This document shows, piece after piece, positions 1,804 through 14,244 of a stretch of 45,557 bases of DNA. The translations under genes and the position numbers were made by a program. This DNA is from a virus (Duplodnaviria; Heunggongvirae; Uroviricota; Caudoviricetes), in IMG/VR virus record IMGVR_UViG_2703719354_000009, positions 1 to 45,557 of that record. One strand, given 5' to 3'. Under the pieces are notes generated by a model. That model was not told the origin of the DNA. It saw only the letters and a program-made list of their open reading frames with translations, and searched no databases. Position 1 is the first letter of the stretch, and every line of letters starts with the position of its first letter.

Positions 1804-2063
1804 GTTAAGTCTCCTTGTCGATCACCCGCAAAACAGTATTGCAGGTCACAGGGTTAGCAGAAAATGTTGTCAACACAAGACAGGCTTGCGAGATATGTTT
1901 GAGAATACCACTTTATCCCGCGTCAGGGAGAGGCAGTGCGTAAAAAGACGCGGACTCATGTGAAATACTGGTTTTTAGTGCGCCAGATCTCTATAATCTC
2001 GCGCAACCTATTTTCCCCTCGAACACTTTTTAAGCCGTAGATAAACAGGCTGGGACACTTCAC

Positions 2064-2522: not shown

Positions 2523-2613
2523 TCTTTTCAACGCCTGGCACTGCCGGGCGTTGTTCTTTTTAACTTCAGGCAGGTTACAATAGTTTCCAGTAAGTATTCT
2601 GGAGGCTGCATCC

Positions 2614-3858
2614 ATGACACAGGCAAACCTGAGCGAAACCCTGTTCAAACCCCGCTTTAAACATCCTGAAACCTCGACGCTAGTCCGCCGCTTTAATCAC
2701 GGCGCACAACCGCCTGTGCAGTCGGCTCTTGATGGTAAAACCATCCCTCACTGGTATCGCATGATTAACCGTCTGATGTGGATCTGGCGCGGTATTGACC
2801 CACGTGAAATCCTCGACGTCCAGGCACGTATTGTGATGAGCGATGCTGAACGTACCGACGATGATTTATACGATACTGTGATTGGCTACCGTGGTGGCAA
2901 CTGGATTTATGAGTGGGCCACCCAGGCGATGGTGTGGCAACAAAAAGCCTGTGCGGAAGAAGATCCGCAACTCAGTGGTCGACACTGGCTGCATGCGGCT
3001 ACGTTGTACAACATTGCCGCCTATCCTCATCTGAAAGGAGATGACCTGGCCGAGCAAGCGCAGGCTTTATCAAACCGCGCCTATGAAGAGGCCGCCCAGC
3101 GTCTGCCGGGCACGATGCGGCAGATGGAGTTTACCGTACCCGGCGGTGCGCCCATCACCGGCTTTTTGCATATGCCGAAAGGCGATGGCCCGTTCCCGAC
3201 AGTATTAATGTGTGGTGGTCTGGATGCGATGCAGACGGACTATTACAGCCTGTATGAACGTTATTTTGCGCCGCGCGGCATTGCGATGCTGACTATTGAT
3301 ATGCCATCGGTGGGCTTTTCTTCAAAATGGAAGCTCACCCAGGACTCCAGCCTGTTGCATCAGCACGTCTTAAAGGCGCTGCCTAACGTACCGTGGGTGG
3401 ATCACACTCGCGTCGCGGCCTTTGGTTTCCGTTTCGGCGCTAACGTTGCCGTGCGTCTGGCATATCTTGAATCGCCGCGTCTGAAAGCGGTTGCCTGTCT
3501 TGGTCCGGTAGTTCATACCCTGTTGAGTGATTTTAAGTGCCAGCAACAGGTGCCGGAAATGTATCTTGACGTTCTGGCGAGTCGTTTGGGGATGCATGAT
3601 GCTTCCGATGACGCGTTACGCGTGGAGCTGAATCGCTATTCATTAAAAGTGCAAGGATTGCTGGGGCGTCGCTGCCCAACGCCAATGTTATCAGGCTACT
3701 GGAAGAACGATCCGTTCAGCCCGGAAGAGGACTCACGCTTAATCACCTCATCATCTGCTGACGGTAAATTATTAGAGATCCCATTTAACCCGGTGTATCG
3801 GAATTTTGACAAAGGTCTTCAGGAAATCACCGGCTGGATCGAAAAACGCTTGTGTTAA
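2614..3858 (+). CDS. frsA: Esterase FrsA (alpha/beta hydrolase)
   Basis: 414-aa [24 protein letters not shown]...; conserved synteny gpt-frsA-crl. Confidence 0.9.
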
Positions 3859-8181: not shown

Positions 8182-8257
8182 GCCGATATAGCTCAGTTGG
8201 TAGAGCAGCGCATTCGTAATGCGAAGGTCGTAGGTTCGACTCCTATTATCGGCACCA
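8182..8257 (+). tRNA. thrW: tRNA-Thr, anticodon CGU
   Basis: 76-nt sequence GCCGATATAGCTCAGTTGGTAGAGCAGCGCATTCGTAATGCG...GGCACCA with cloverleaf arms, anticodon loop CATTCGTAATG and 3' CCA; lies just downstream of proA. Confidence 0.9.
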
Positions 8258-8271: not shown

Positions 8272-9435
8272 TTACACATCATTAGTACCTTCCTTATTTT
8301 TTGACTGGGACAAATTTGGGACCGATGGGTTCAGGATCGAGTCTATTTGCCGTGCGTGTTCGGTAAGGTGATTAGGTGCAAGGTGAGCATATCGACGAAC
8401 CATTTCGATAGACTCCCAGCCTCCCATTTCCTGTAACACTGACAACGGGACTCCGGCTTGAACCAGCCAACTTGCCCAGGTGTGTCTCAAGTCGTGAAAT
8501 CTGAAATCATCAATATCAGCCCGTCTCAGCGCCGCTTTCCAGGCTGTGTTTGCGTCATACCGCATCTTCCTTACTGTTGGCGCTTTCGTTCCGTCTGGTT
8601 TGGTACAGCTTTCCTTGTACACAAATACCCAACGGTGATGATTCCCGATTTGTTTTTTCAATACGCGACATGCAGTATCATTCAGCGCAACGCCAATTGC
8701 GCGGTTTGATTTACTCTCTTCCGGGTTTATCCATGCCACCCGGCGCTGCATATCTATTTGTTGCCATTCAAGGTTGATGATGTTCGAGCGCCTTAAACCT
8801 GTTGCCAGTGCAAATTCAACAACAGACTTTAATGGCTCCGGACATTCATCAATCAGCCTTTGTGCTTCATGGGGCTCCAGCCAGCGGATCCGTTTATTCT
8901 TTGGTTGAGGCACTTTAATAATTGGTGCCTTATCCAGCATTTTCCATTCACGCTCTGCGGCTCTTAGTAGGGCCTTTATAAATGAAAGATGCGTAGCCTT
9001 CGTTGCAACGGACGCTGGTTTTGGCGTGTATTCTGGAACAGGTTTCCCTTTTTTTCTGCATGCTTCTGCCCTGAGTCTCCAGTTTTCCTCATGACGCCGG
9101 TTCGTCATTTTCTGCATTGCTGAATAAATTTTTGATTCAGTAATGTCTCTTAGTTGCATTCCTGCGAAATGTTGAAGCCAGAATCCGATCCGGCTTTTGT
9201 CATCGTCCAGTGATTTTTTATGTGCTTTCTCTTCAAGCCACCTGACACACGCTTCCTCGAACGTTATATCAGGTATTTCACCAAGTTTGCTGACCCGCCA
9301 TGCTTCAGCCTTTAGCTTGTCATGGAGTTCTGTCGCCTGCCTTTTGTCCTTTGTTCCAAGAGACTGTTTAAATCTTTTACCGTTCGGCAATGTGAAACTG
9401 GCGTACCATATTTCACCTCTGCGGAAGAGTGACAT
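8272..9435 (-). CDS. int: Phage tyrosine integrase
   Basis: 387-aa ORF with N-terminus [34 protein letters not shown] and C-terminal catalytic region ...[39 protein letters not shown]; adjacent to attL. Confidence 0.9.
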
Positions 9436-11873: not shown

Positions 11874-12236
11874 TTAATGACCTGCTGCGCGGAGTTTTCC
11901 GTCAGGTTCACCGGCAAGAGTCAGTAATTGTCCCTGGTCTTCCTGCAGAATAGTCAGGCGACCACCGCGATTGACATACATCGGCGTTTCGGTGGTGTCT
12001 TCTTCGGAAATTTTCCCGCGGTTAGTCGGGCGAACATATGAGAGTTTGTGTTTGATTTTCACACGGTTCTCATCAAATGGTTCGATTTCCAGGTTGAGTG
12101 AGACCTTACCTTTGGTTTTCGTGTTCATCACACCGGAAGCGACTTCACTGAGAACTGCGCCGATTTTGGTTTCAAATACGCCGCCGTCCAGCTCCCCAAT
12201 AAATGCCTGCACATCAGTACTGCGTTCGCTAGCCAT
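11874..12236 (-). CDS. Hypothetical phage protein (YfdP-position)
   Basis: Start chosen at internal Met MASERSTDVQAF (121 aa); the 5' extension of the track ORF runs into a GC-rich structured region and looks non-coding. Confidence 0.5.
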   Translation of the reverse strand: MASERSTDVQAFIGELDGGVFETKIGAVLSEVASGVMNTKTKGKVSLNLEIEPFDENRVKIKHKLSYVRPTNRGKISEEDTTETPMYVNRGGRLTILQEDQGQLLTLAGEPDGKLRAAGH

Positions 12237-12284
12237 TTTTCTGCTCCTAATCATATCGACCCTGCAAGGTCGGTTGGTTTCTCC

Positions 12285-12373
12285 ACAAAACAGAGAAGAA
12301 CACCTGCGGTGGCAGCCGCCCGGATGGATTGGGTTATGAGCCCGTCGTCCGGTGATGTTCTTCTCTGTTTTGT
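12285..12373. repeat. Perfect 18-bp inverted repeat (ACAAAACAGAGAAGAACA / TGTTCTTCTCTGTTTTGT) separated by a 53-nt GC-rich loop
   Basis: Arms at 12285-12302 and 12356-12373 are exact reverse complements. A second 10-bp inverted repeat GCGGTACCAG/CTGGTACCGC lies at 12381-12419. Confidence 0.8.
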
Positions 12374-12674
12374 AAAAAGAGCGGTACCAGCCGGAAGCAA
12401 GTGTACAAACTGGTACCGCGAGGACTACACACAGCATAAAGTTGTGGTGCCGGGTGCCTCCCGGTGCCTGGCGAAAGTTGCACACCAGGCGGGTGGGTAT
12501 CCACAGAAGGTCGACTGTCAGCCTCAACCTTAACCCGCGTGCGCTGAGCCGCATTCACCACAACGCTAAGGATTCTCTCTGGTTGAAAATACTTAGCTGT
12601 TATGTGCCTGTCTTTTCACCACTTCAGGCTCGGTGGTATCTTGGTGTTTTCATATAGCCAAGAAGGAAATAGTT

Positions 12675-12866
12675 ATGACCAAAGAAGAAAAAATTCTTTA
12701 TTTATTCCAACTATCGGTTAAGACTCACACTGCATATCAGACTGCTGCCATGACATCAGATAAAAATTACAGTACGTCAGAAAACCCGATAGACGACATA
12801 AGCAAGCTTTACGATAAGTTCGAAGCACTACTCGATAAAAAGTTTGCTGAGGCTGGGCTTGAGTGA
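12675..12866 (+). CDS. Small hypothetical protein (63 aa)
   Basis: ATG at 12675 preceded by AAGGA; AT-rich coding sequence MTKEEKILYLFQLSVKTH... Confidence 0.35.
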   Translation: MTKEEKILYLFQLSVKTHTAYQTAAMTSDKNYSTSENPIDDISKLYDKFEALLDKKFAEAGLE

Positions 12867-13004
12867 TTGTTGAATAATCGACAAAACCCAACTTAAATTT
12901 TCGTCAGTGGGCTCGATGCCATGTGCGGTGAGCTCACTTTTCAAAACTCCAAGCAATTCAGAGCTGATTTTCAATATATCTGCTTGATTTCTAACTATTC
13001 CCAC
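12828..13004 (-). CDS. Small hypothetical protein (58 aa), first gene downstream of the putative leftward promoter
   Basis: GTG start with strong upstream AAGGGAGG; converges on and overlaps the 3' end of the 12675-12866 ORF by 39 bp. Confidence 0.4.
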   Translation of the reverse strand: MGIVRNQADILKISSELLGVLKSELTAHGIEPTDENLSWVLSIIQQSLKPSLSKLFIE

Positions 13005-13195
13005 TTTTTCCTCCCTTGGTCTACGCGCGGTCATGTTTTACGCCCAAACGACTTCACAGTTATTGTTTAAAATCTGGACTTTCATTTCATACACCTGCTT
13101 TAACATGAGTGCCTAGTGGCACAACATGACTCAACGAATCATCCTGGACTTCATATGCCCCAGGCGGCTACTTCGTGGGCGTCCTGCCTGTTCGT

Positions 13196-13232
13196 TGTTT
13201 CGCTTGGGTACATTATGTATCTCAAAGGTACA
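13196..13232. promoter_or_regulatory. Two operator-like sites (OL-type), TGTTT-N7-GTACA and TGTAT-N7-GTACA
   Basis: Half-site pattern matches the perfect palindromes in the cI-cro intergenic region; located just downstream of cI where a leftward promoter is expected. Confidence 0.45.
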
Positions 13233-13242
13233 TTGTCAAGTA

Positions 13243-13266
13243 TAAAAAAACCTGCCGAAGCAGGTT
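13243..13266 (-). terminator. Rho-independent terminator downstream of the repressor gene
   Basis: On the minus strand: AACCTGC-TTCG-GCAGGTT hairpin followed by a T run. Confidence 0.6.
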
Positions 13267-13278
13267 CATAAACATTGA

Positions 13279-13953
13279 TTAGGCTTTGATTTTGTATCTT
13301 CTTGGTTTTCCTGAGAAAATCACTGTACCAATTATAGAGCAATTACCGTTGATCTTAATGTAAGGCTCAGGCCAGTTTGGGTTTAACGCTTTGAGATAAC
13401 GCTGTGTCCCATCTTCTATCAACCTTTTGAAGGTGGTTTCACCTGTATCGTGCATCAATGCAATAACGTCGTCACCGTGGCAGGCAGGTACTTCAGGATC
13501 GACAAAAATCATGTCTCCCGGGCGGTACTCATCAATCATTGAATCACCTATCACCCGCAAGATATAAGTCATTTCCCCACAGGGTACAGGGCAGGGATAC
13601 GTTTCTGCTGTGCTCAAATCAACCTCAGAATATCCAACTTCTTTCCATGCTCCGGCCTGTACCCATGATATGACAGGGACTAATGTGATTTGTTTATTAG
13701 TGATTGAAACATCAGGTTTTTTTGTGATGTTCGTTGTCTGGTGTTCTTGATCGAGCCATCCGACAGGCAGGTCGAAACATTTTTCGATGTGTCGTGCCAT
13801 GCTGTCACCGATATTTTTAGTAGCACCATCTCCCATAAACCTGCTGGTCTGGGTTGGCTCGCGATCAATCATAGTGGCAAAGGAAGAATTCCCGCCAACA
13901 CCATCTCTCAGTTTTCTGGCGTTAGACCGCCGGATGTCATGGATTGTTTTCAT
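13279..13953 (-). CDS. cI: CI-type phage repressor (HTH plus S24 LexA-like peptidase domain)
   Basis: 224 aa; C-terminal S24 signature ...VIGDSMIDEYRPGDMIFVD...FKRL...; divergent from a cro-like gene; no Shine-Dalgarno upstream of the ATG. Confidence 0.85.
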   Translation of the reverse strand: MKTIHDIRRSNARKLRDGVGGNSSFATMIDREPTQTSRFMGDGATKNIGDSMARHIEKCFDLPVGWLDQEHQTTNITKKPDVSITNKQITLVPVISWVQAGAWKEVGYSEVDLSTAETYPCPVPCGEMTYILRVIGDSMIDEYRPGDMIFVDPEVPACHGDDVIALMHDTGETTFKRLIEDGTQRYLKALNPNWPEPYIKINGNCSIIGTVIFSGKPRRYKIKA

Positions 13954-13968
13954 AACGAAATTAAAACC

Positions 13969-13989
13969 CTTGTACCGTTAAGGTACAAG
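13969..13989. promoter_or_regulatory. Operator palindrome CTTGTACC-GTTAA-GGTACAAG (OR-type)
   Basis: Perfect 8-bp inverted arms in the cI-cro intergenic region; core TGTAC-N7-GTACA. Confidence 0.55.
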
Positions 13990-14017
13990 TATCTTGAAGG
14001 TTCATTTCAATCATGTA

Positions 14018-14040
14018 ATATGTACACCGGAGGTACATAT
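14018..14040. promoter_or_regulatory. Operator palindrome ATATGTAC-ACCGGAG-GTACATAT (OR-type)
   Basis: Perfect 8-bp inverted arms; same TGTAC-N7-GTACA core; overlaps the cro ribosome-binding region. Confidence 0.55.
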
Positions 14041-14043
14041 TGT

Positions 14044-14244
14044 ATGAAAGCGTATTGGGACTCTTTAACCAAAGAACAGCAGGGCGAGTTGGCCGGAAAA
14101 GTTGGCTCAACACCTGGCTACTTACGGCTGGTTTTCAATGGCTATAAAAAAGCCAGTTTTGTGCTGGCTAAAAAACTTGAGCAATGCACGTCAGGTGCAA
14201 TTACGAAATCTGACTTAAGACCGGATATCTATCCGAAAGATTAG
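14044..14244 (+). CDS. cro: Cro/YdaS-like HTH regulator
   Basis: Start at MKAYWDSLTKEQQGELAGKVGSTPGYLRLVFNG... (66 aa) preceded by GGAGG; divergent from cI. Confidence 0.7.
   Translation: MKAYWDSLTKEQQGELAGKVGSTPGYLRLVFNGYKKASFVLAKKLEQCTSGAITKSDLRPDIYPKD

What the first reader, a model, noticed from the sequence alone, without database searches (positions are those of the whole stretch)
12237..12674. GC-rich structured non-coding region with a perfect 18-bp inverted repeat in the early-left operon leader
About 440 bp between the YfdP-like gene and the small plus-strand gene has no convincing ORF and is GC-rich. It contains an exact 18-bp inverted repeat with a 53-nt loop (12285-12373), a second exact 10-bp inverted repeat GCGGTACCAG/CTGGTACCGC (12381-12419) and a 5-bp hairpin just upstream of the gene start (12261-12276). 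None is followed by a U run, so they are not simple intrinsic terminators. Candidates are a structured ncRNA, an antitermination or processing site in the leftward transcript, or a protein-binding site.
Basis: seen in the sequence. Interest (0 to 1): 0.5.

Follow-up and report, generated by a model that had tools for sequence, protein, structure and literature searches.

The report
DicF-type prophage small-RNA locus, tRNA-like hairpin
The "non-coding gap" upstream of yfdP is the leftward-transcribed small-RNA locus of an SfV-like prophage, built like the well-studied dicF locus of E. coli K-12. It has a structured STnc100-family RNA core, a DicF-like terminator hairpin, and a long stem capped by a look-alike of the initiator-tRNA anticodon arm that appears to be undescribed.

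Summary
The inverted repeats are real. All of them belong to RNA made from the minus strand, in the sense of the early-left (pL) transcript.

- **STnc100 match.** Bases 12372-12594 (-) match Rfam STnc100 (RF02076) at 48.5 bits against a gathering score of 47.
- **10-bp repeat.** It is the Rho-independent terminator of that RNA. It aligns with K-12 DicF.
- **18-bp repeat.** It is the closing stem, about 30 bp once U-run:GGAGA pairing is counted, of a three-way junction. The stem covaries across enterobacterial prophages: 23 pairs changed on both sides, against 14.9±1.8 in shuffles.
- **Apex of the junction.** It carries GGG-CUCAUAA-CCC, the initiator-tRNA anticodon stem-loop.
- **Klebsiella phages.** The same module sits at the end of tRNA arrays, with a short stem and an encoded CCA.
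- **Comparison with Qin.** The layout (core, linker, terminator, long stem, first gene) matches the Qin dicF locus. There, published work assigns RNase E and RNase III processing, with an RNase III cut inside the equivalent long stem.

Most likely this is a processed-sRNA locus that doubles as an RNase III processing site of the early-left mRNA. Protein coding, put-like antitermination and a DNA-level role are not supported. The kind is known. The tRNA-like module appears to be undescribed, and its function is unknown.

The parts
13212..13239 (-). pL-like promoter (TTGACA-16-CATAAT) just downstream of the cI-like repressor gene and its terminator. Its spacer holds an operator-like palindrome, TGTACC..GATACA. 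It is the presumed source of the leftward transcript.
   Evidence: Promoter scan, 11 of 12 matches. The TGTAC-N-GTACA palindromes are shared with the cI-cro intergenic region. No other promoter-like site was found on the minus strand between here and 12594. Function is inferred, not shown.
12565..12597 (-). Hairpin on the 5' flank of the core (GCUAAGUAUUUUC / GAGAAUCCUUAGC).
   Evidence: Inverted repeat I3, 13 nt at 85% complementarity. It is present in the minimum-free-energy folds.
12372..12594 (-). Full-length match to Rfam RF02076 (STnc100, a prophage sRNA family related to PasD): structured core, linker and terminator.
   Evidence: cmscan: 48.5 bits against a gathering score of 47, E = 1.5e-7, model positions 1-206 of 206.
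12441..12564 (-). Multi-branched core closed by a perfect 9-bp helix, GUUGUGGUG/CACCACAAC. It ends in the family's signature hairpin CCGGGAGGCACCCGG (12450-12464). In some related phages a tRNA-like structure with true D and T arms and the same closing helix takes this position.
   Evidence: Repeat I7, 9 of 9. Folds. The 19-mer CCGGGAGGCACCCGGCACC is shared by at least 70 sequence clusters in viral contigs. The tRNA-like replacements in L220, L203 and L214 score 43.9, 40 and 29.5 bits on the Rfam tRNA model.
12420..12440 (-). Single-stranded linker UUUAUGCUGUGUGUAGUCCUC. It is the candidate seed of a DicF-like sRNA and the likely place of RNase E cleavage.
   Evidence: The motif UGCUGUGUGUAGUCUUGGCGG is conserved across many genera at this position. 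It aligns with the 5' part of K-12 DicF. The cleavage is inferred from DicF (PMC5069750, PMC9438474).
12374..12419 (-). Rho-independent terminator: a perfect 10-bp GC-rich stem (12381-12390 / 12410-12419), a 19-nt loop and the tail UCUUUUU (12380-12374). It is homologous to the terminator hairpin of DicF.
   Evidence: Repeat I4. It forms the 3' terminator of the STnc100 alignment. It aligns with K-12 DicF and 20 relatives, with invariant GGCGG..CCGCC and UUUUU columns. Relatives hit Rfam DicF at 29-30 bits, E about 0.005. The simple terminator scan misses it because the loop is longer than 8 nt.
12280..12378 (-). Long closing stem with a three-way junction (here called the TL module). It is a probable RNase III substrate.
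   Evidence: Folds. Covariation on 41 representatives: 83.9% of cells paired against about 44% when partners are slid. 23 pairs changed on both sides, against 14.9±1.8 in shuffles (0 of 500 shuffles reach it). 155 of 165 distinct copies of the pL-leader form are preceded by at least 5 U, and 158 of 165 are followed by GGAGA. The RNase III role is inferred from the equivalent stem in Qin (PMC5069750, PMC9438474).
12320..12352 (-). Arm 1: CCGGA CG AC GGG CUCAUAA CCC AA UC CA UCCGG. It resembles an anticodon arm, with the triplet CAU at 12338-12336. The 14 nt CGGGCUCAUAACCC are identical to E. coli initiator tRNA-fMet.
   Evidence: Sequence. The tRNA gene sequence was verified at 100% identity, four copies per genome, annotated tRNA-Met. 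The arm is invariant or compensated in the alignments. CAU is kept in 253 of 261 held copies, whereas position 37 is A (190) or U (62).
12306..12319 (-). Arm 2: the small hairpin GCGG-CUGCCA-CCGC. Its length and sequence vary between phages (14 to 39 nt).
   Evidence: Alignment A1. In helix 4, three of four pairs changed on both sides.
12257..12272 (-). Small hairpin CGACC-UUGCAG-GGUCG between the long stem and the yfdP ribosome-binding site. A hairpin of different sequence sits here in many relatives.
12234..12248 (-). yfdP Shine-Dalgarno sequence AGGAG (12248-12244) and start codon (12236-12234). yfdP is the first gene downstream of the RNA modules.
   Evidence: PHROG 204 match for YfdP.

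Best explanation
The region is the small-RNA and processing module of the prophage's repressor-controlled leftward operon. It is built like the dicF locus of the K-12 prophage Qin.

**Proposed sequence of events**
1. The leftward transcript, presumably from pL at 13239-13212, folds into three parts:
   - a multi-branched STnc100-family core;
   - a short single-stranded linker that could act as a seed;
   - a DicF-like terminator hairpin with a U tail.
2. Part of the transcription stops at the terminator. This gives an STnc100-type RNA of about 200 nt.
3. RNase E could trim that RNA in the AU-rich linker to a DicF-like sRNA of about 65 nt. This sRNA would bind Hfq.
4. Transcripts that read through also form the stem of about 30 bp that starts at the terminator's own U-run.
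5. RNase III would cut this stem. The cut would give the sRNA an alternative 3' end and separate it from the yfdP-yfdQ-yfdR...xis-int mRNA.

**Status of the steps**
- Shown here: the strand, the family match, the terminator, conservation and covariation of the long stem, and the shared architecture with Qin.
- Inferred by analogy with DicF: the promoter of origin, the RNase E and RNase III cuts, and Hfq binding.
- Unknown: the targets of the sRNA, and the role of the initiator-tRNA-like apex of the long stem.
For: - **Family match.** Rfam STnc100 hits the minus strand above the gathering score, over the full model length.
- **The family is real.** Its members are transcribed in EHEC, one is confirmed by Northern blot, and the related PasD RNAs were found bound to Hfq (PMC5331693; bioRxiv 10.64898/2026.05.13.724894).
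- **Terminator.** The tail UCUUUUU follows the 10-bp stem.
- **Homology to DicF.** The terminator module aligns with K-12 DicF. Relatives hit Rfam DicF weakly.
- **Position.** The element lies between the cI-like repressor and the early-left genes, in the sense orientation. This holds across phages of several immunity types.
- **No own promoter.** None was found next to the core. Many other STnc100 genes have one directly upstream.
- **Long stem.** It covaries, it is strand-specific with 99 G.U against 10 A.C, and 94% of copies abut a U-run.
- **Qin has the same order.** There the order is core, DicF, U-run, a 21-bp stem closing an STnc100-like core, then dicB.
- **Published DicF processing.**
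  - RNase E makes the 5' end of the 53-nt form.
  - RNase III makes the 190-nt form.
  - RNase III makes a 72-nt form whose 3' end falls about 19 nt past the terminator, inside that long stem.
  - Sources: PMC5069750, PMC9438474, bioRxiv 10.1101/2023.04.14.536235.
Against: - No expression or end-mapping data exist for this locus. Everything about processing is by analogy.
- The STnc100 score is only 1.5 bits above threshold.
- The window copy does not reach any reportable score against Rfam DicF (E ≤ 10).
- Its loop and seed differ from DicF, so the targets cannot be transferred. The ftsZ pairing test was uninformative.
- The long stem in Qin encloses a different apical domain, so RNase III susceptibility is inferred from stem length alone.
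- The strong conservation of the tRNA-like apex is not explained by a mere processing role.
Confidence: 0.6

Rival explanations
1. The modules act purely in cis as an attenuator and mRNA-processing leader. The terminator limits transcription into yfdP...int. The long stem and the downstream hairpin set the stability and translation of the early-left mRNA. No trans-acting sRNA matters. This reading overlaps the best explanation and differs only on whether the released RNA has targets.
For: - There is no promoter directly upstream of the core.
- The position in the leader is constant in the pL-leader subgroup.
- The long stem pairs with the U-run and the GGAGA, and 96% of copies keep GGAGA.
- A small hairpin just before the ribosome-binding site recurs with different sequences.
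Against: - The linker motif UGCUGUGUGUAGUCUUGGCGG is conserved across genera, as a seed would be.
- STnc100/PasD and DicF relatives are established trans-acting or Hfq-bound RNAs (papers cited above).
- Many family members are stand-alone genes with their own promoter and terminator.
Confidence: 0.2
2. The apex of the long stem is a functional mimic of the initiator-tRNA anticodon arm. It would act as a decoy or ligand for a host factor that recognises tRNA-fMet. Candidates are a VapC-type anticodon nuclease, MetRS, or the 30S P site with IF3. The long stem would only present it. In Klebsiella phages the same module would be released as a free tRNA-like RNA of 71 nt.
For: - 14 nt are identical to the tRNA-fMet anticodon stem-loop, including the three G-C pairs.
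- CAU is kept in 253 of 261 copies while the neighbouring position 37 varies.
- The apex is the most widely conserved piece across genera.
- The Klebsiella form sits in tRNA arrays with tRNA-like spacing, a 6-7-bp closing stem and an encoded (G/A)CCA.
- The arm lengths match the two coaxial stacks of a tRNA. This is my own reading.
Against: - No partner has been tested.
- The copies were collected with patterns that fix the bases flanking the loop, so invariance is partly by design.
- ARAGORN and the Rfam tRNA model do not call it.
- There is no D arm or T loop.
- Two literature searches found nothing on such a mimic. That is absence of evidence only.
Confidence: 0.15
3. The region encodes a protein. 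Candidates are an N-terminally extended YfdP, the 'frameshifted hypothetical protein' of PGAP with SfII_35, or the plus-strand ORF that matches PHROG 3651.
For: - The yfdP frame is open for 106 extra codons.
- PGAP annotates a pseudogene here, and SfII_35 is annotated.
- The plus-strand ORF hits PHROG 3651 at E = 8e-49.
Against: - There is no Pfam hit for any ORF.
- Variable sites among 31 close relatives fall 13:11:11 over the three codon positions, so there is no third-position excess.
- Arm 2 varies in length by non-multiples of 3: 14, 15, 16, 17, 35 and 39 nt.
- No frame stays open over the whole region in 109 of 110 relatives.
- The PHROG profile is 162 aa and only its second half is matched here. 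Its first half would lie antisense to yfdP.
- Substitutions preserve base pairs, including strand-specific G.U pairs.
Confidence: 0.03
4. The structured RNA is a put-like element (HK022 type) or a nut-like processive antiterminator. It would modify RNA polymerase so that it reads through the terminator into the early-left genes.
For: - No N-like gene is obvious between cI and the element.
- A terminator lies inside the operon.
- There is a loose boxA-like run, GCUCUUUUUACAA, at 12382-12370 (my reading).
Against: - There is no sequence similarity to the HK022 putL region.
- There is a single copy, about 610 nt from pL, and none downstream of pR.
- The same core occurs as stand-alone genes with their own promoter and terminator, and these yield discrete RNAs of about 190 nt (PMC5331693). 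That fits badly with an antiterminator.
- The 'boxA' is simply the terminator's U tail.
Confidence: 0.03
5. The repeats act at the DNA level, as a protein-binding or cruciform site, or as conserved 'linker' sequences at which lambdoid modules recombine.
For: Mosaic breakpoints in phage BLAST hits fall at module borders, near 12260, 12420 and 12640. The modules are shuffled between phages.
Against: - Wobble pairs are strand-asymmetric, 99 G.U against 10 A.C.
- Compensatory changes keep the pairing rather than the sequence.
- The element occurs in tRNA arrays as an RNA-like gene.
- Recombination at conserved RNA modules can be a by-product of their conservation.
Confidence: 0.05

Closest known systems
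dicF locus of the cryptic prophage Qin, E. coli K-12 (ydfABC-dicF-dicB operon; Rfam RF00039)
   Same: - It lies in the repressor-controlled leftward operon of a lambdoid prophage.
- The order is structured core, single-stranded linker, GGCGG..CCGCC terminator hairpin with a U tail, a long stem that starts at the U-run and closes a further structured domain, then the first downstream gene.
- The terminator module can be aligned.
   Different: - The window copy does not score against the DicF model.
- Its loop and seed differ.
- The domain enclosed by the long stem is a tRNA-like junction here and an STnc100-like core in Qin.
- The STnc100-like core lies upstream of the terminator here and downstream of it in Qin.
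- The downstream gene is yfdP, not dicB.
STnc100 / PasD prophage sRNA family (Rfam RF02076)
   Same: Full-length match above the gathering score. It shares the closing helix, the signature hairpin CCGGGAGGCACCCGG and a 3' terminator.
   Different: - The score is marginal.
- The internal hairpins differ from the consensus.
- This copy has no promoter of its own and is embedded in the pL operon, whereas many members are stand-alone genes in late regions.
- The function of the family is itself unknown.
RNase III hairpins in phage early transcripts (lambda N leader and sib, T7 R1-R5). This comparison rests on my own knowledge.
   Same: A long, nearly perfect stem of 25-30 bp lies inside an early polycistronic transcript, just upstream of a gene.
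   Different: No cleavage has been shown here. The stem is capped by a conserved three-way junction rather than a simple loop.
tRNA-like modules used as mimics or processing signals (bacterial YrlA Y-RNA, plant-virus tRNA-like structures, mascRNA, the thrS operator as an anticodon-arm mimic). This comparison rests on my own knowledge.
   Same: It has an anticodon-arm look-alike, arm lengths compatible with a tRNA shape, and in Klebsiella phages a place in a tRNA array with an encoded CCA.
   Different: It has no D arm or T loop. YrlA mimics the acceptor, T and D parts rather than the anticodon arm. The thrS operator mimics tRNA-Thr and binds its own synthetase. No partner is known here.
HK022 put RNA
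   Same: It is a structured RNA in the leader of the early-left operon of a lambdoid phage without an obvious N gene.
   Different: There is no sequence or structural similarity. There is a single copy, far from the promoter. The family also exists as self-terminating sRNA genes.

Membership tests
Rfam RF02076 STnc100 | Covariance-model score at or above the curated gathering score (47 bits), over the full model | tested here: met
   48.5 bits, E = 1.5e-7, model positions 1-206 of 206, minus strand 12594-12372. The margin is small.
Rfam RF02076 STnc100 | Closing helix ..UGGUGAAU.. / ..CACCA.. and the conserved hairpin CCGGGAGGCACCCGG next to the 3' strand | tested here: met
   GUUGUGGUGAAUG ... 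CACCGGGAGGCACCCGGCACCACAAC.
Rfam RF02076 STnc100 | Stand-alone gene with a sigma-70 promoter a few bases upstream of the closing helix (seen in many members) | tested here: not met
   No promoter-like site lies next to 12594. Many family members show TTGACA-17-TAAATT directly upstream. The window's subgroup (GAAUG type) lacks it and lies in pL leaders.
Rfam RF02076 STnc100 | Expression as a discrete RNA of about 160-210 nt; Hfq association (shown for PasD) | not testable with these tools
   Only literature on other copies is available (PMC5331693; bioRxiv 10.64898/2026.05.13.724894).
DicF (Rfam RF00039) | Covariance-model score at or above 48 bits | tested here: not met
   No DicF match at E ≤ 10 in 12000-12900. 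Relatives L214 and L203 reach 29-30 bits. K-12 DicF reaches 76.7 bits.
DicF (Rfam RF00039) | Terminator hairpin GGCGG...CCGCC with a U tail, preceded by a U/G-rich single strand | tested here: met
   Alignment A2 places the window's CGCGGUACCAG...CUGGUACCGC UCUUUUU in register with K-12 DicF and 20 relatives. The outermost G-C pair is lost in the window copy.
DicF (Rfam RF00039) | Location inside the repressor-controlled early-left-type operon, followed by a long stem (an RNase III site in Qin) | tested here: met
   The RNase III cleavage itself was not tested.
DicF (Rfam RF00039) | Complementarity of the 3' part to the ftsZ translation-initiation region | tested here: inconclusive
   Duplex energies were no better than shuffled controls, even for genuine DicF, so the test has no power. 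The loop motif CCGUGA of DicF is absent from the window copy.
tRNA | Cloverleaf with D arm, anticodon arm, T arm and acceptor stem, detectable by ARAGORN or the Rfam tRNA model | tested here: not met
   The only tRNA in the window is thrW at 8182-8257. Nothing was found at 12280-12378, even at E ≤ 10. The Klebsiella-type copies were not called either.
tRNA | Seven-base anticodon loop with U33 and a purine at position 37, on a stem (here the initiator signature GGG/CCC with CAU) | tested here: met
   GGG-CUCAUAA-CCC at 12343-12331. It is identical to E. coli tRNA-fMet over 14 nt. The stem has only 3 bp before an internal loop.
HK022 put antiterminator RNA | Two-stem RNA of about 70 nt, similar to putL/putR, immediately downstream of pL, with a second copy downstream of pR | tested here: not met
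   No similarity to the HK022 pL-nun region. Single copy. It lies about 610 nt from the predicted pL.
Intrinsic (Rho-independent) terminator | GC-rich hairpin followed at once by a U-rich tract on the transcribed strand | tested here: met
   A 10-bp perfect stem with 7 G-C pairs, followed by UCUUUUU on the minus strand. The consensus scan does not list it because its loop limit is 8 nt and this loop is 19 nt. Termination itself was not tested.

The most novel reading that the evidence does not exclude
The 'loop' of the 18-bp repeat is a previously undescribed, widely conserved phage RNA module: a D-arm-less mimic of the initiator-tRNA anticodon arm.

- **Two settings.** In enterobacterial temperate phages it is either embedded in the early-left leader on a long RNase III-type stem, or encoded as a free tRNA-like gene of 71 nt with a CCA end, at the end of the tRNA arrays of Klebsiella phages.
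- **Proposed action.** It would work in trans on the host translation-initiation or tRNA-surveillance machinery. One possibility is a decoy for nucleases that cleave tRNA-fMet. Another is a ligand of MetRS or of the 30S P site.
- **Broader idea.** The neighbouring 'cores' (STnc100-like, or tRNA-like with true D and T arms) would then be further interchangeable tRNA-derived modules of the same system.
Probability: 0.15. Interest if true: 0.75.

Novelty: new variant of a known kind. Interest (0 to 1): 0.5.

Why it matters
**What is ordinary**
- dicF-like sequences and STnc100/PasD RNAs are already known to be widespread in enterobacterial prophages.
- About half of 5,426 complete E. coli genomes match at least part of bases 12200-12700.

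**Practical value**
- Annotation pipelines currently place pseudogenes and 'hypothetical proteins' over these RNAs (PGAP, SfII_35, PHROG 3651).
- Rfam's STnc100 model and DicF turn out to be parts of one modular locus type, which links two bodies of literature.

**What is new**
- The long stem that follows the terminator carries a conserved, covarying look-alike of the initiator-tRNA anticodon arm.
- This look-alike also occurs as a tRNA-like gene in Klebsiella phage tRNA arrays.

**If the tRNA-like module has a function**
- It would add an RNA-level player to the current picture of phage tRNAs and tRNA-targeting host defences.
- It would also give a testable reason for the structured domains that flank DicF-type sRNAs.

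Tried and rejected
1. **HK022 put-like antitermination.** I fetched the HK022 immunity region and located nun, cI and putL. There was no similarity by BLAST at word size 7 and no Rfam hit. Rejected.
2. **A true tRNA or tmRNA at the repeat.** ARAGORN and the Rfam tRNA model are negative.
3. **Protein coding.** There are no Pfam hits. The PHROG hit on the plus-strand ORF is explained as an annotation artefact.
4. **ftsZ targeting by the DicF-like RNA.** RNAduplex gave no discrimination even for genuine DicF. Uninformative and dropped.
5. **Published RNase III data for this exact element in K-12.** CPS-53 has lost the region upstream of yfdP, so only the Qin analogue is informative. The RNase III mapping paper mentions DicF only in passing.
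6. **Literature on an initiator-tRNA mimic or VapC decoy in phages.** Nothing relevant was found.
7. **Matches to the apical motif outside Enterobacterales.** Most lack the hairpin context and look like chance matches. There are two exceptions, listed under things noticed in passing.
8. **Not run.** No covariance model of my own was built. No protein-homology or structure searches were run, because no ORF passed the coding tests.
Full report
**Setting**

The window is E. coli chromosome (frsA, crl, phoE, proBA, then tRNA-Thr thrW at 8182-8257). A lambdoid prophage of the SfV/ST64B type is integrated at thrW.

On the minus strand the prophage genes run int, xis, yfdT, yfdS, yfdR, yfdQ, yfdP (start codon at 12236). 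A LexA-family cI-like repressor lies at 13279-13953 (-) and cro at about 14040-14244 (+). An identical stretch occurs in strain KSC1031.

A strong promoter-like site, TTGACA-16-CATAAT, lies at 13239-13212 (-), just after the repressor gene's terminator. Its spacer carries a TGTAC..GTACA-type palindrome like those between cI and cro. I take this to be pL. That is an inference.

**Checking the observation**

- The 18-mer is far beyond chance. The longest perfect repeat in 300 dinucleotide shuffles was 12 nt.
- The whole region folds with z = -7.7 on the minus strand.
- The small hairpin is at 12257-12272, four bases from the stated position.
- The statement that no hairpin is followed by a U run is wrong for the strand that matters. 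On the minus strand the 10-bp hairpin is followed by UCUUUUUAC.
- GC content is only moderately raised: 51.8% against 45.7% in the neighbouring prophage DNA.

**Module 1: an STnc100-family RNA on the minus strand**

cmscan against Rfam gives one match in the region. It is RF02076 (STnc100) at 12594-12372 on the minus strand, at 48.5 bits (gathering score 47), covering the full model.

The alignment uses three features:
- the perfect 9-bp helix GUUGUGGUG/CACCACAAC as the closing helix;
- the hairpin CCGGGAGGCACCCGG as the conserved 3' element;

What is known about STnc100:
- It is a known prophage sRNA family.
- EDL933 has eleven copies, most of them transcribed and one confirmed by Northern blot (PMC5331693).
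- It was recently proposed to share ancestry with the Hfq-bound PasD RNAs (bioRxiv 10.64898/2026.05.13.724894).
- Its function is unknown.

A scan of viral contigs for the 19-mer CCGGGAGGCACCCGGCACC returned at least 120 loci. They fall into about 70 clusters at 90% identity.
- Many clusters have a consensus promoter a few bases upstream of GUGGUGAAUC and a terminator downstream. Those are stand-alone sRNA genes.
- The window's subgroup (GAAUG type) has no such promoter.
- In phages of several immunity types this subgroup lies between the repressor gene and the early-left genes, in the sense orientation.

**Module 2: a DicF-like terminator**

In relatives, the hairpin at the position of the 10-bp repeat hits Rfam DicF weakly (29-30 bits, E about 0.005). 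I fetched the K-12 Qin dicF locus.

An alignment of 22 such modules puts K-12 DicF in register with the window copy. The GGCGG...CCGCC stem ends and the U tail are shared.

The single-stranded stretch before the hairpin, UGCUGUGUGUAGUCUUGGCGG, is conserved across many genera. That is how a seed behaves.

The window copy itself does not score against the DicF model. Its loop lacks DicF's CCGUGA motif. I therefore call it DicF-like in architecture and ancestry, not a DicF orthologue. A test for pairing with ftsZ had no power.

**Module 3: the 18-bp repeat closes a conserved three-way junction**

*Conservation.* BLAST of 12238-12430 against phages showed that the most widely conserved piece is not the arms. 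It is the 53-nt 'loop', and it reaches Salmonella, Citrobacter and Klebsiella phages.

*Sequence.* On the minus strand the 'loop' reads:
- CCGGA-CG-AC-GGG-CUCAUAA-CCC-AA-UC-CA-UCCGG
- followed by GCGG-CUGCCA-CCGC.

The 14 nt CGGGCUCAUAACCC are identical to the anticodon stem-loop of E. coli initiator tRNA. I verified that gene sequence at 100% identity, four copies per genome, annotated tRNA-Met.

*Covariation.* Scans for GGGCTCATAAYCCAATCC gave at least 120 viral loci and 38 species genomes. On an alignment of 41 representatives, with the structure taken from the window copy:
- 83.9% of cells are paired, against about 44% when partners are slid;
- 23 of 39 pairs changed on both sides, against 14.9±1.8 in shuffles and 9-14 in the slid controls;
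- 0 of 500 shuffles reach any of the five measures.

*Strand.* Wobble pairs are strand-specific, 99 G.U against 10 A.C. The RNA is therefore the minus-strand transcript.

- The terminator's U-run pairs with a conserved GGAGA after the 3' arm, giving about 30 bp.
- Of 165 distinct copies of this form, 155 are directly preceded by at least 5 U.
- 158 of them are followed by GGAGA.

*Second context.* In Klebsiella phages the same two arms sit on a 6-7-bp stem that ends in (G/A)CCA.
- They lie six bases after the last tRNA of an array, between Q and the lysis genes.
- ARAGORN does not call this a tRNA.
- Rfam has no family for it.

*The CAU triplet.* Scans that exclude each base of the triplet in turn gave 4, 4 and 0 loci. 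A scan that excludes the A at position 37 gave 61 loci. Among held copies the loop is CUCAUAA in 190, CUCAUUA in 62 and something else in 9. This suggests constraint on CAU. The collections fix the flanking bases, so the test is biased.

**The architecture matches Qin**

In K-12 the interval between ydfC and dicB reads, in order:
1. a structured core closed by GUUGUGGC.../...GCUGCAAC;
2. a linker;
3. DicF with its terminator;
4. the U-run;
5. a 21-bp stem that closes an STnc100-like core (34.4 bits);
6. dicB.

The window has the same order, with the domains exchanged:
1. an STnc100-like core;
2. a linker;
3. the DicF-like terminator;
4. the U-run;
5. the long stem that closes the tRNA-like junction;
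6. yfdP.

In other relatives the first core is replaced by a tRNA-like structure. It has a genuine D arm and T arm and the same GUUGUGG/CCACAAC closing helix. It scores 43.9, 40 and 29.5 bits on the Rfam tRNA model, with 64-68 nt in place of the anticodon arm.

The structured domains thus behave as interchangeable modules around a constant terminator-plus-long-stem joint. Among 165 copies of this form, the upstream core is:
- STnc100-like in 73;
- tRNA-like with a T loop in 3;
- something else in 89.

**Mechanism**

For DicF the literature reports the following (PMC5069750; PMC9438474; bioRxiv 10.1101/2023.04.14.536235, which cites Faubladier et al. 1990):
- a 5' end made by RNase E;
- a 190-nt form whose 5' end is made by RNase III;
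- a 3' end made either by Rho-independent termination (53 nt) or by RNase III cleavage of the full-length RNA (72 nt).

Seventy-two nucleotides from the DicF 5' end falls at L240 position 2954. That is inside the 5' arm of the long stem seen.

By analogy I propose, for the window:
- termination at 12374-12380 gives the STnc100-type RNA;
- RNase E in the AU-rich linker releases a DicF-like sRNA of about 65 nt;
- RNase III cuts the 12280-12378 stem in read-through transcripts.

These three steps are inferred. The strand, family match, terminator, covariation and shared layout are shown.

**Rivals**

- *Protein coding.* An identical genome carries a PGAP 'frameshifted hypothetical protein' here. 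SfII_35 is annotated over it. The plus-strand ORF hits PHROG 3651. Against this:
  - no ORF has a Pfam hit;
  - variable sites among 31 close relatives split 13:11:11 over the codon positions;
  - arm 2 changes length by non-multiples of three;
  - no frame is open across the region in relatives.

  I regard these annotations as artefacts.
- *Put-like antitermination.* There is no similarity to HK022, and the idea fits badly with self-terminating family members.
- *A DNA-level role.* This is contradicted by the strand-asymmetric wobble pairs. Mosaic breakpoints do fall at module borders.
- *A purely cis-acting leader.* This remains possible and is compatible with the main model.

**What remains unexplained**

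A processing role alone does not account for the near-invariant apex that resembles initiator tRNA, or for its separate life as a tRNA-like gene in Klebsiella phages.

Possible readings are a decoy for nucleases that target tRNA-fMet, or a ligand of MetRS or of the 30S P site. These are my speculation from general knowledge. Two literature searches found nothing on such an element.

**Verdict**

Its exclusion of a terminator is wrong.

The locus belongs to a known kind (DicF/STnc100-type prophage sRNA loci). It carries one module that appears undescribed. Interest is moderate (0.5) and rests on that module.

Noticed in passing
L132 about 1975-2047 (-), L131, L136, L142, L143 and others (Klebsiella phages): A tRNA-like gene of 71 nt lies six bases after the last tRNA of a phage tRNA array, between Q and the lysis genes. 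Its sequence is GGCCUGA-[anticodon-arm look-alike with CAU]-[6-7-bp hairpin]-CAGGCC-(G/A)CCA. Neither the record annotations nor ARAGORN call it. It is homologous to the 'loop' of the window's 18-bp repeat.
   Followed up: partly
L220 1077-1203 (-), L203 1800-1925 (+), L214 4364-4488 (-): In related prophages the place of the window's STnc100-like core is taken by a tRNA-like structure. It has a canonical D arm, a T arm (GGGUUCGAAUCCC) and a GUUGUGG/CCACAAC acceptor-like helix. An insertion of 64-68 nt replaces the anticodon arm and itself contains a CAU-type loop (AUCAUAA or UUCAUAA). Rfam tRNA scores are 30-44 bits. ARAGORN is negative.
   Followed up: partly
L240 2933-3142 (K-12 Qin, between dicF and dicB): The dicF-dicB intergenic region of K-12 holds an STnc100-like core (34.4 bits, below the gathering score) closed by a 21-bp stem that begins at DicF's U tail. 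By position, the published 72-nt RNase III end of DicF falls inside this stem.
   Followed up: partly
window 12675-12866 (+) and 12828-13034 (-): Two small ORFs lie between pL and the RNA modules: 63 aa (PHROG 2605) and 68 aa (PHROG 15476). They sit on opposite strands and overlap by 39 bp at their 3' ends, so the leftward transcript runs antisense through the plus-strand gene. PGAP annotates only the plus-strand one.
   Followed up: no
window 12237-12554 (-): The yfdP reading frame stays open for 106 codons upstream of its start, across all three RNA modules. There is also an in-frame AUG six codons upstream of the annotated start (12254-12252). I judge this to be coincidental, from the codon-position test.
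   Followed up: partly
window 12309-12533 (+); L126 2457-2795 (SfII_35); L002 9052-9362 (PGAP pseudogene): Database 'proteins' are annotated over the RNA region: PHROG 3651, SfII_35 and a PGAP frameshifted hypothetical protein. These look like spurious ORF families seeded by conserved RNA sequence.
   Followed up: partly
window 13205-13245 and 13960-14040: Operator-like palindromes of the form TGTAC-N8/9-GTACA occur within the spacer of the pL-like promoter and twice between cI and cro.
   Followed up: partly
L009, L022, L041, L060, L082 (two copies about 484-492 nt apart); L013, L070 (three copies): STnc100-family cores often occur as two or three same-strand copies on one phage contig, several at a constant spacing of about 484 nt.
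   Followed up: no
L259 (Acidobacteriaceae MAG), near 2580-2597 (-); L272 (Gammaproteobacteria DTU037), near 3694-3711 (+): Outside Enterobacterales most matches to the apical motif look like chance. Two do not. An acidobacterial MAG has the same apex, ACGGGCUCAUAACCCAAUC, on a different 9-bp stem inside a GCGCGGGCUG/CAGCCCGCGC helix. A gammaproteobacterial MAG has what looks like an initiator tRNA without its T arm.
   Followed up: no
L349 7240-7620 (K-12 CPS-53, upstream of yfdP): K-12's own yfdP has lost the whole RNA leader. It is replaced by repeated GATTTTGACGGGTCA-type units next to the yfdO remnant, so K-12 data sets cannot inform on the tRNA-like module.
   Followed up: yes
window 8182-8257 and 8272-9435: tRNA-Thr (CGU), thrW, directly abuts the prophage integrase gene. 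This is the attachment site of the prophage.
   Followed up: no
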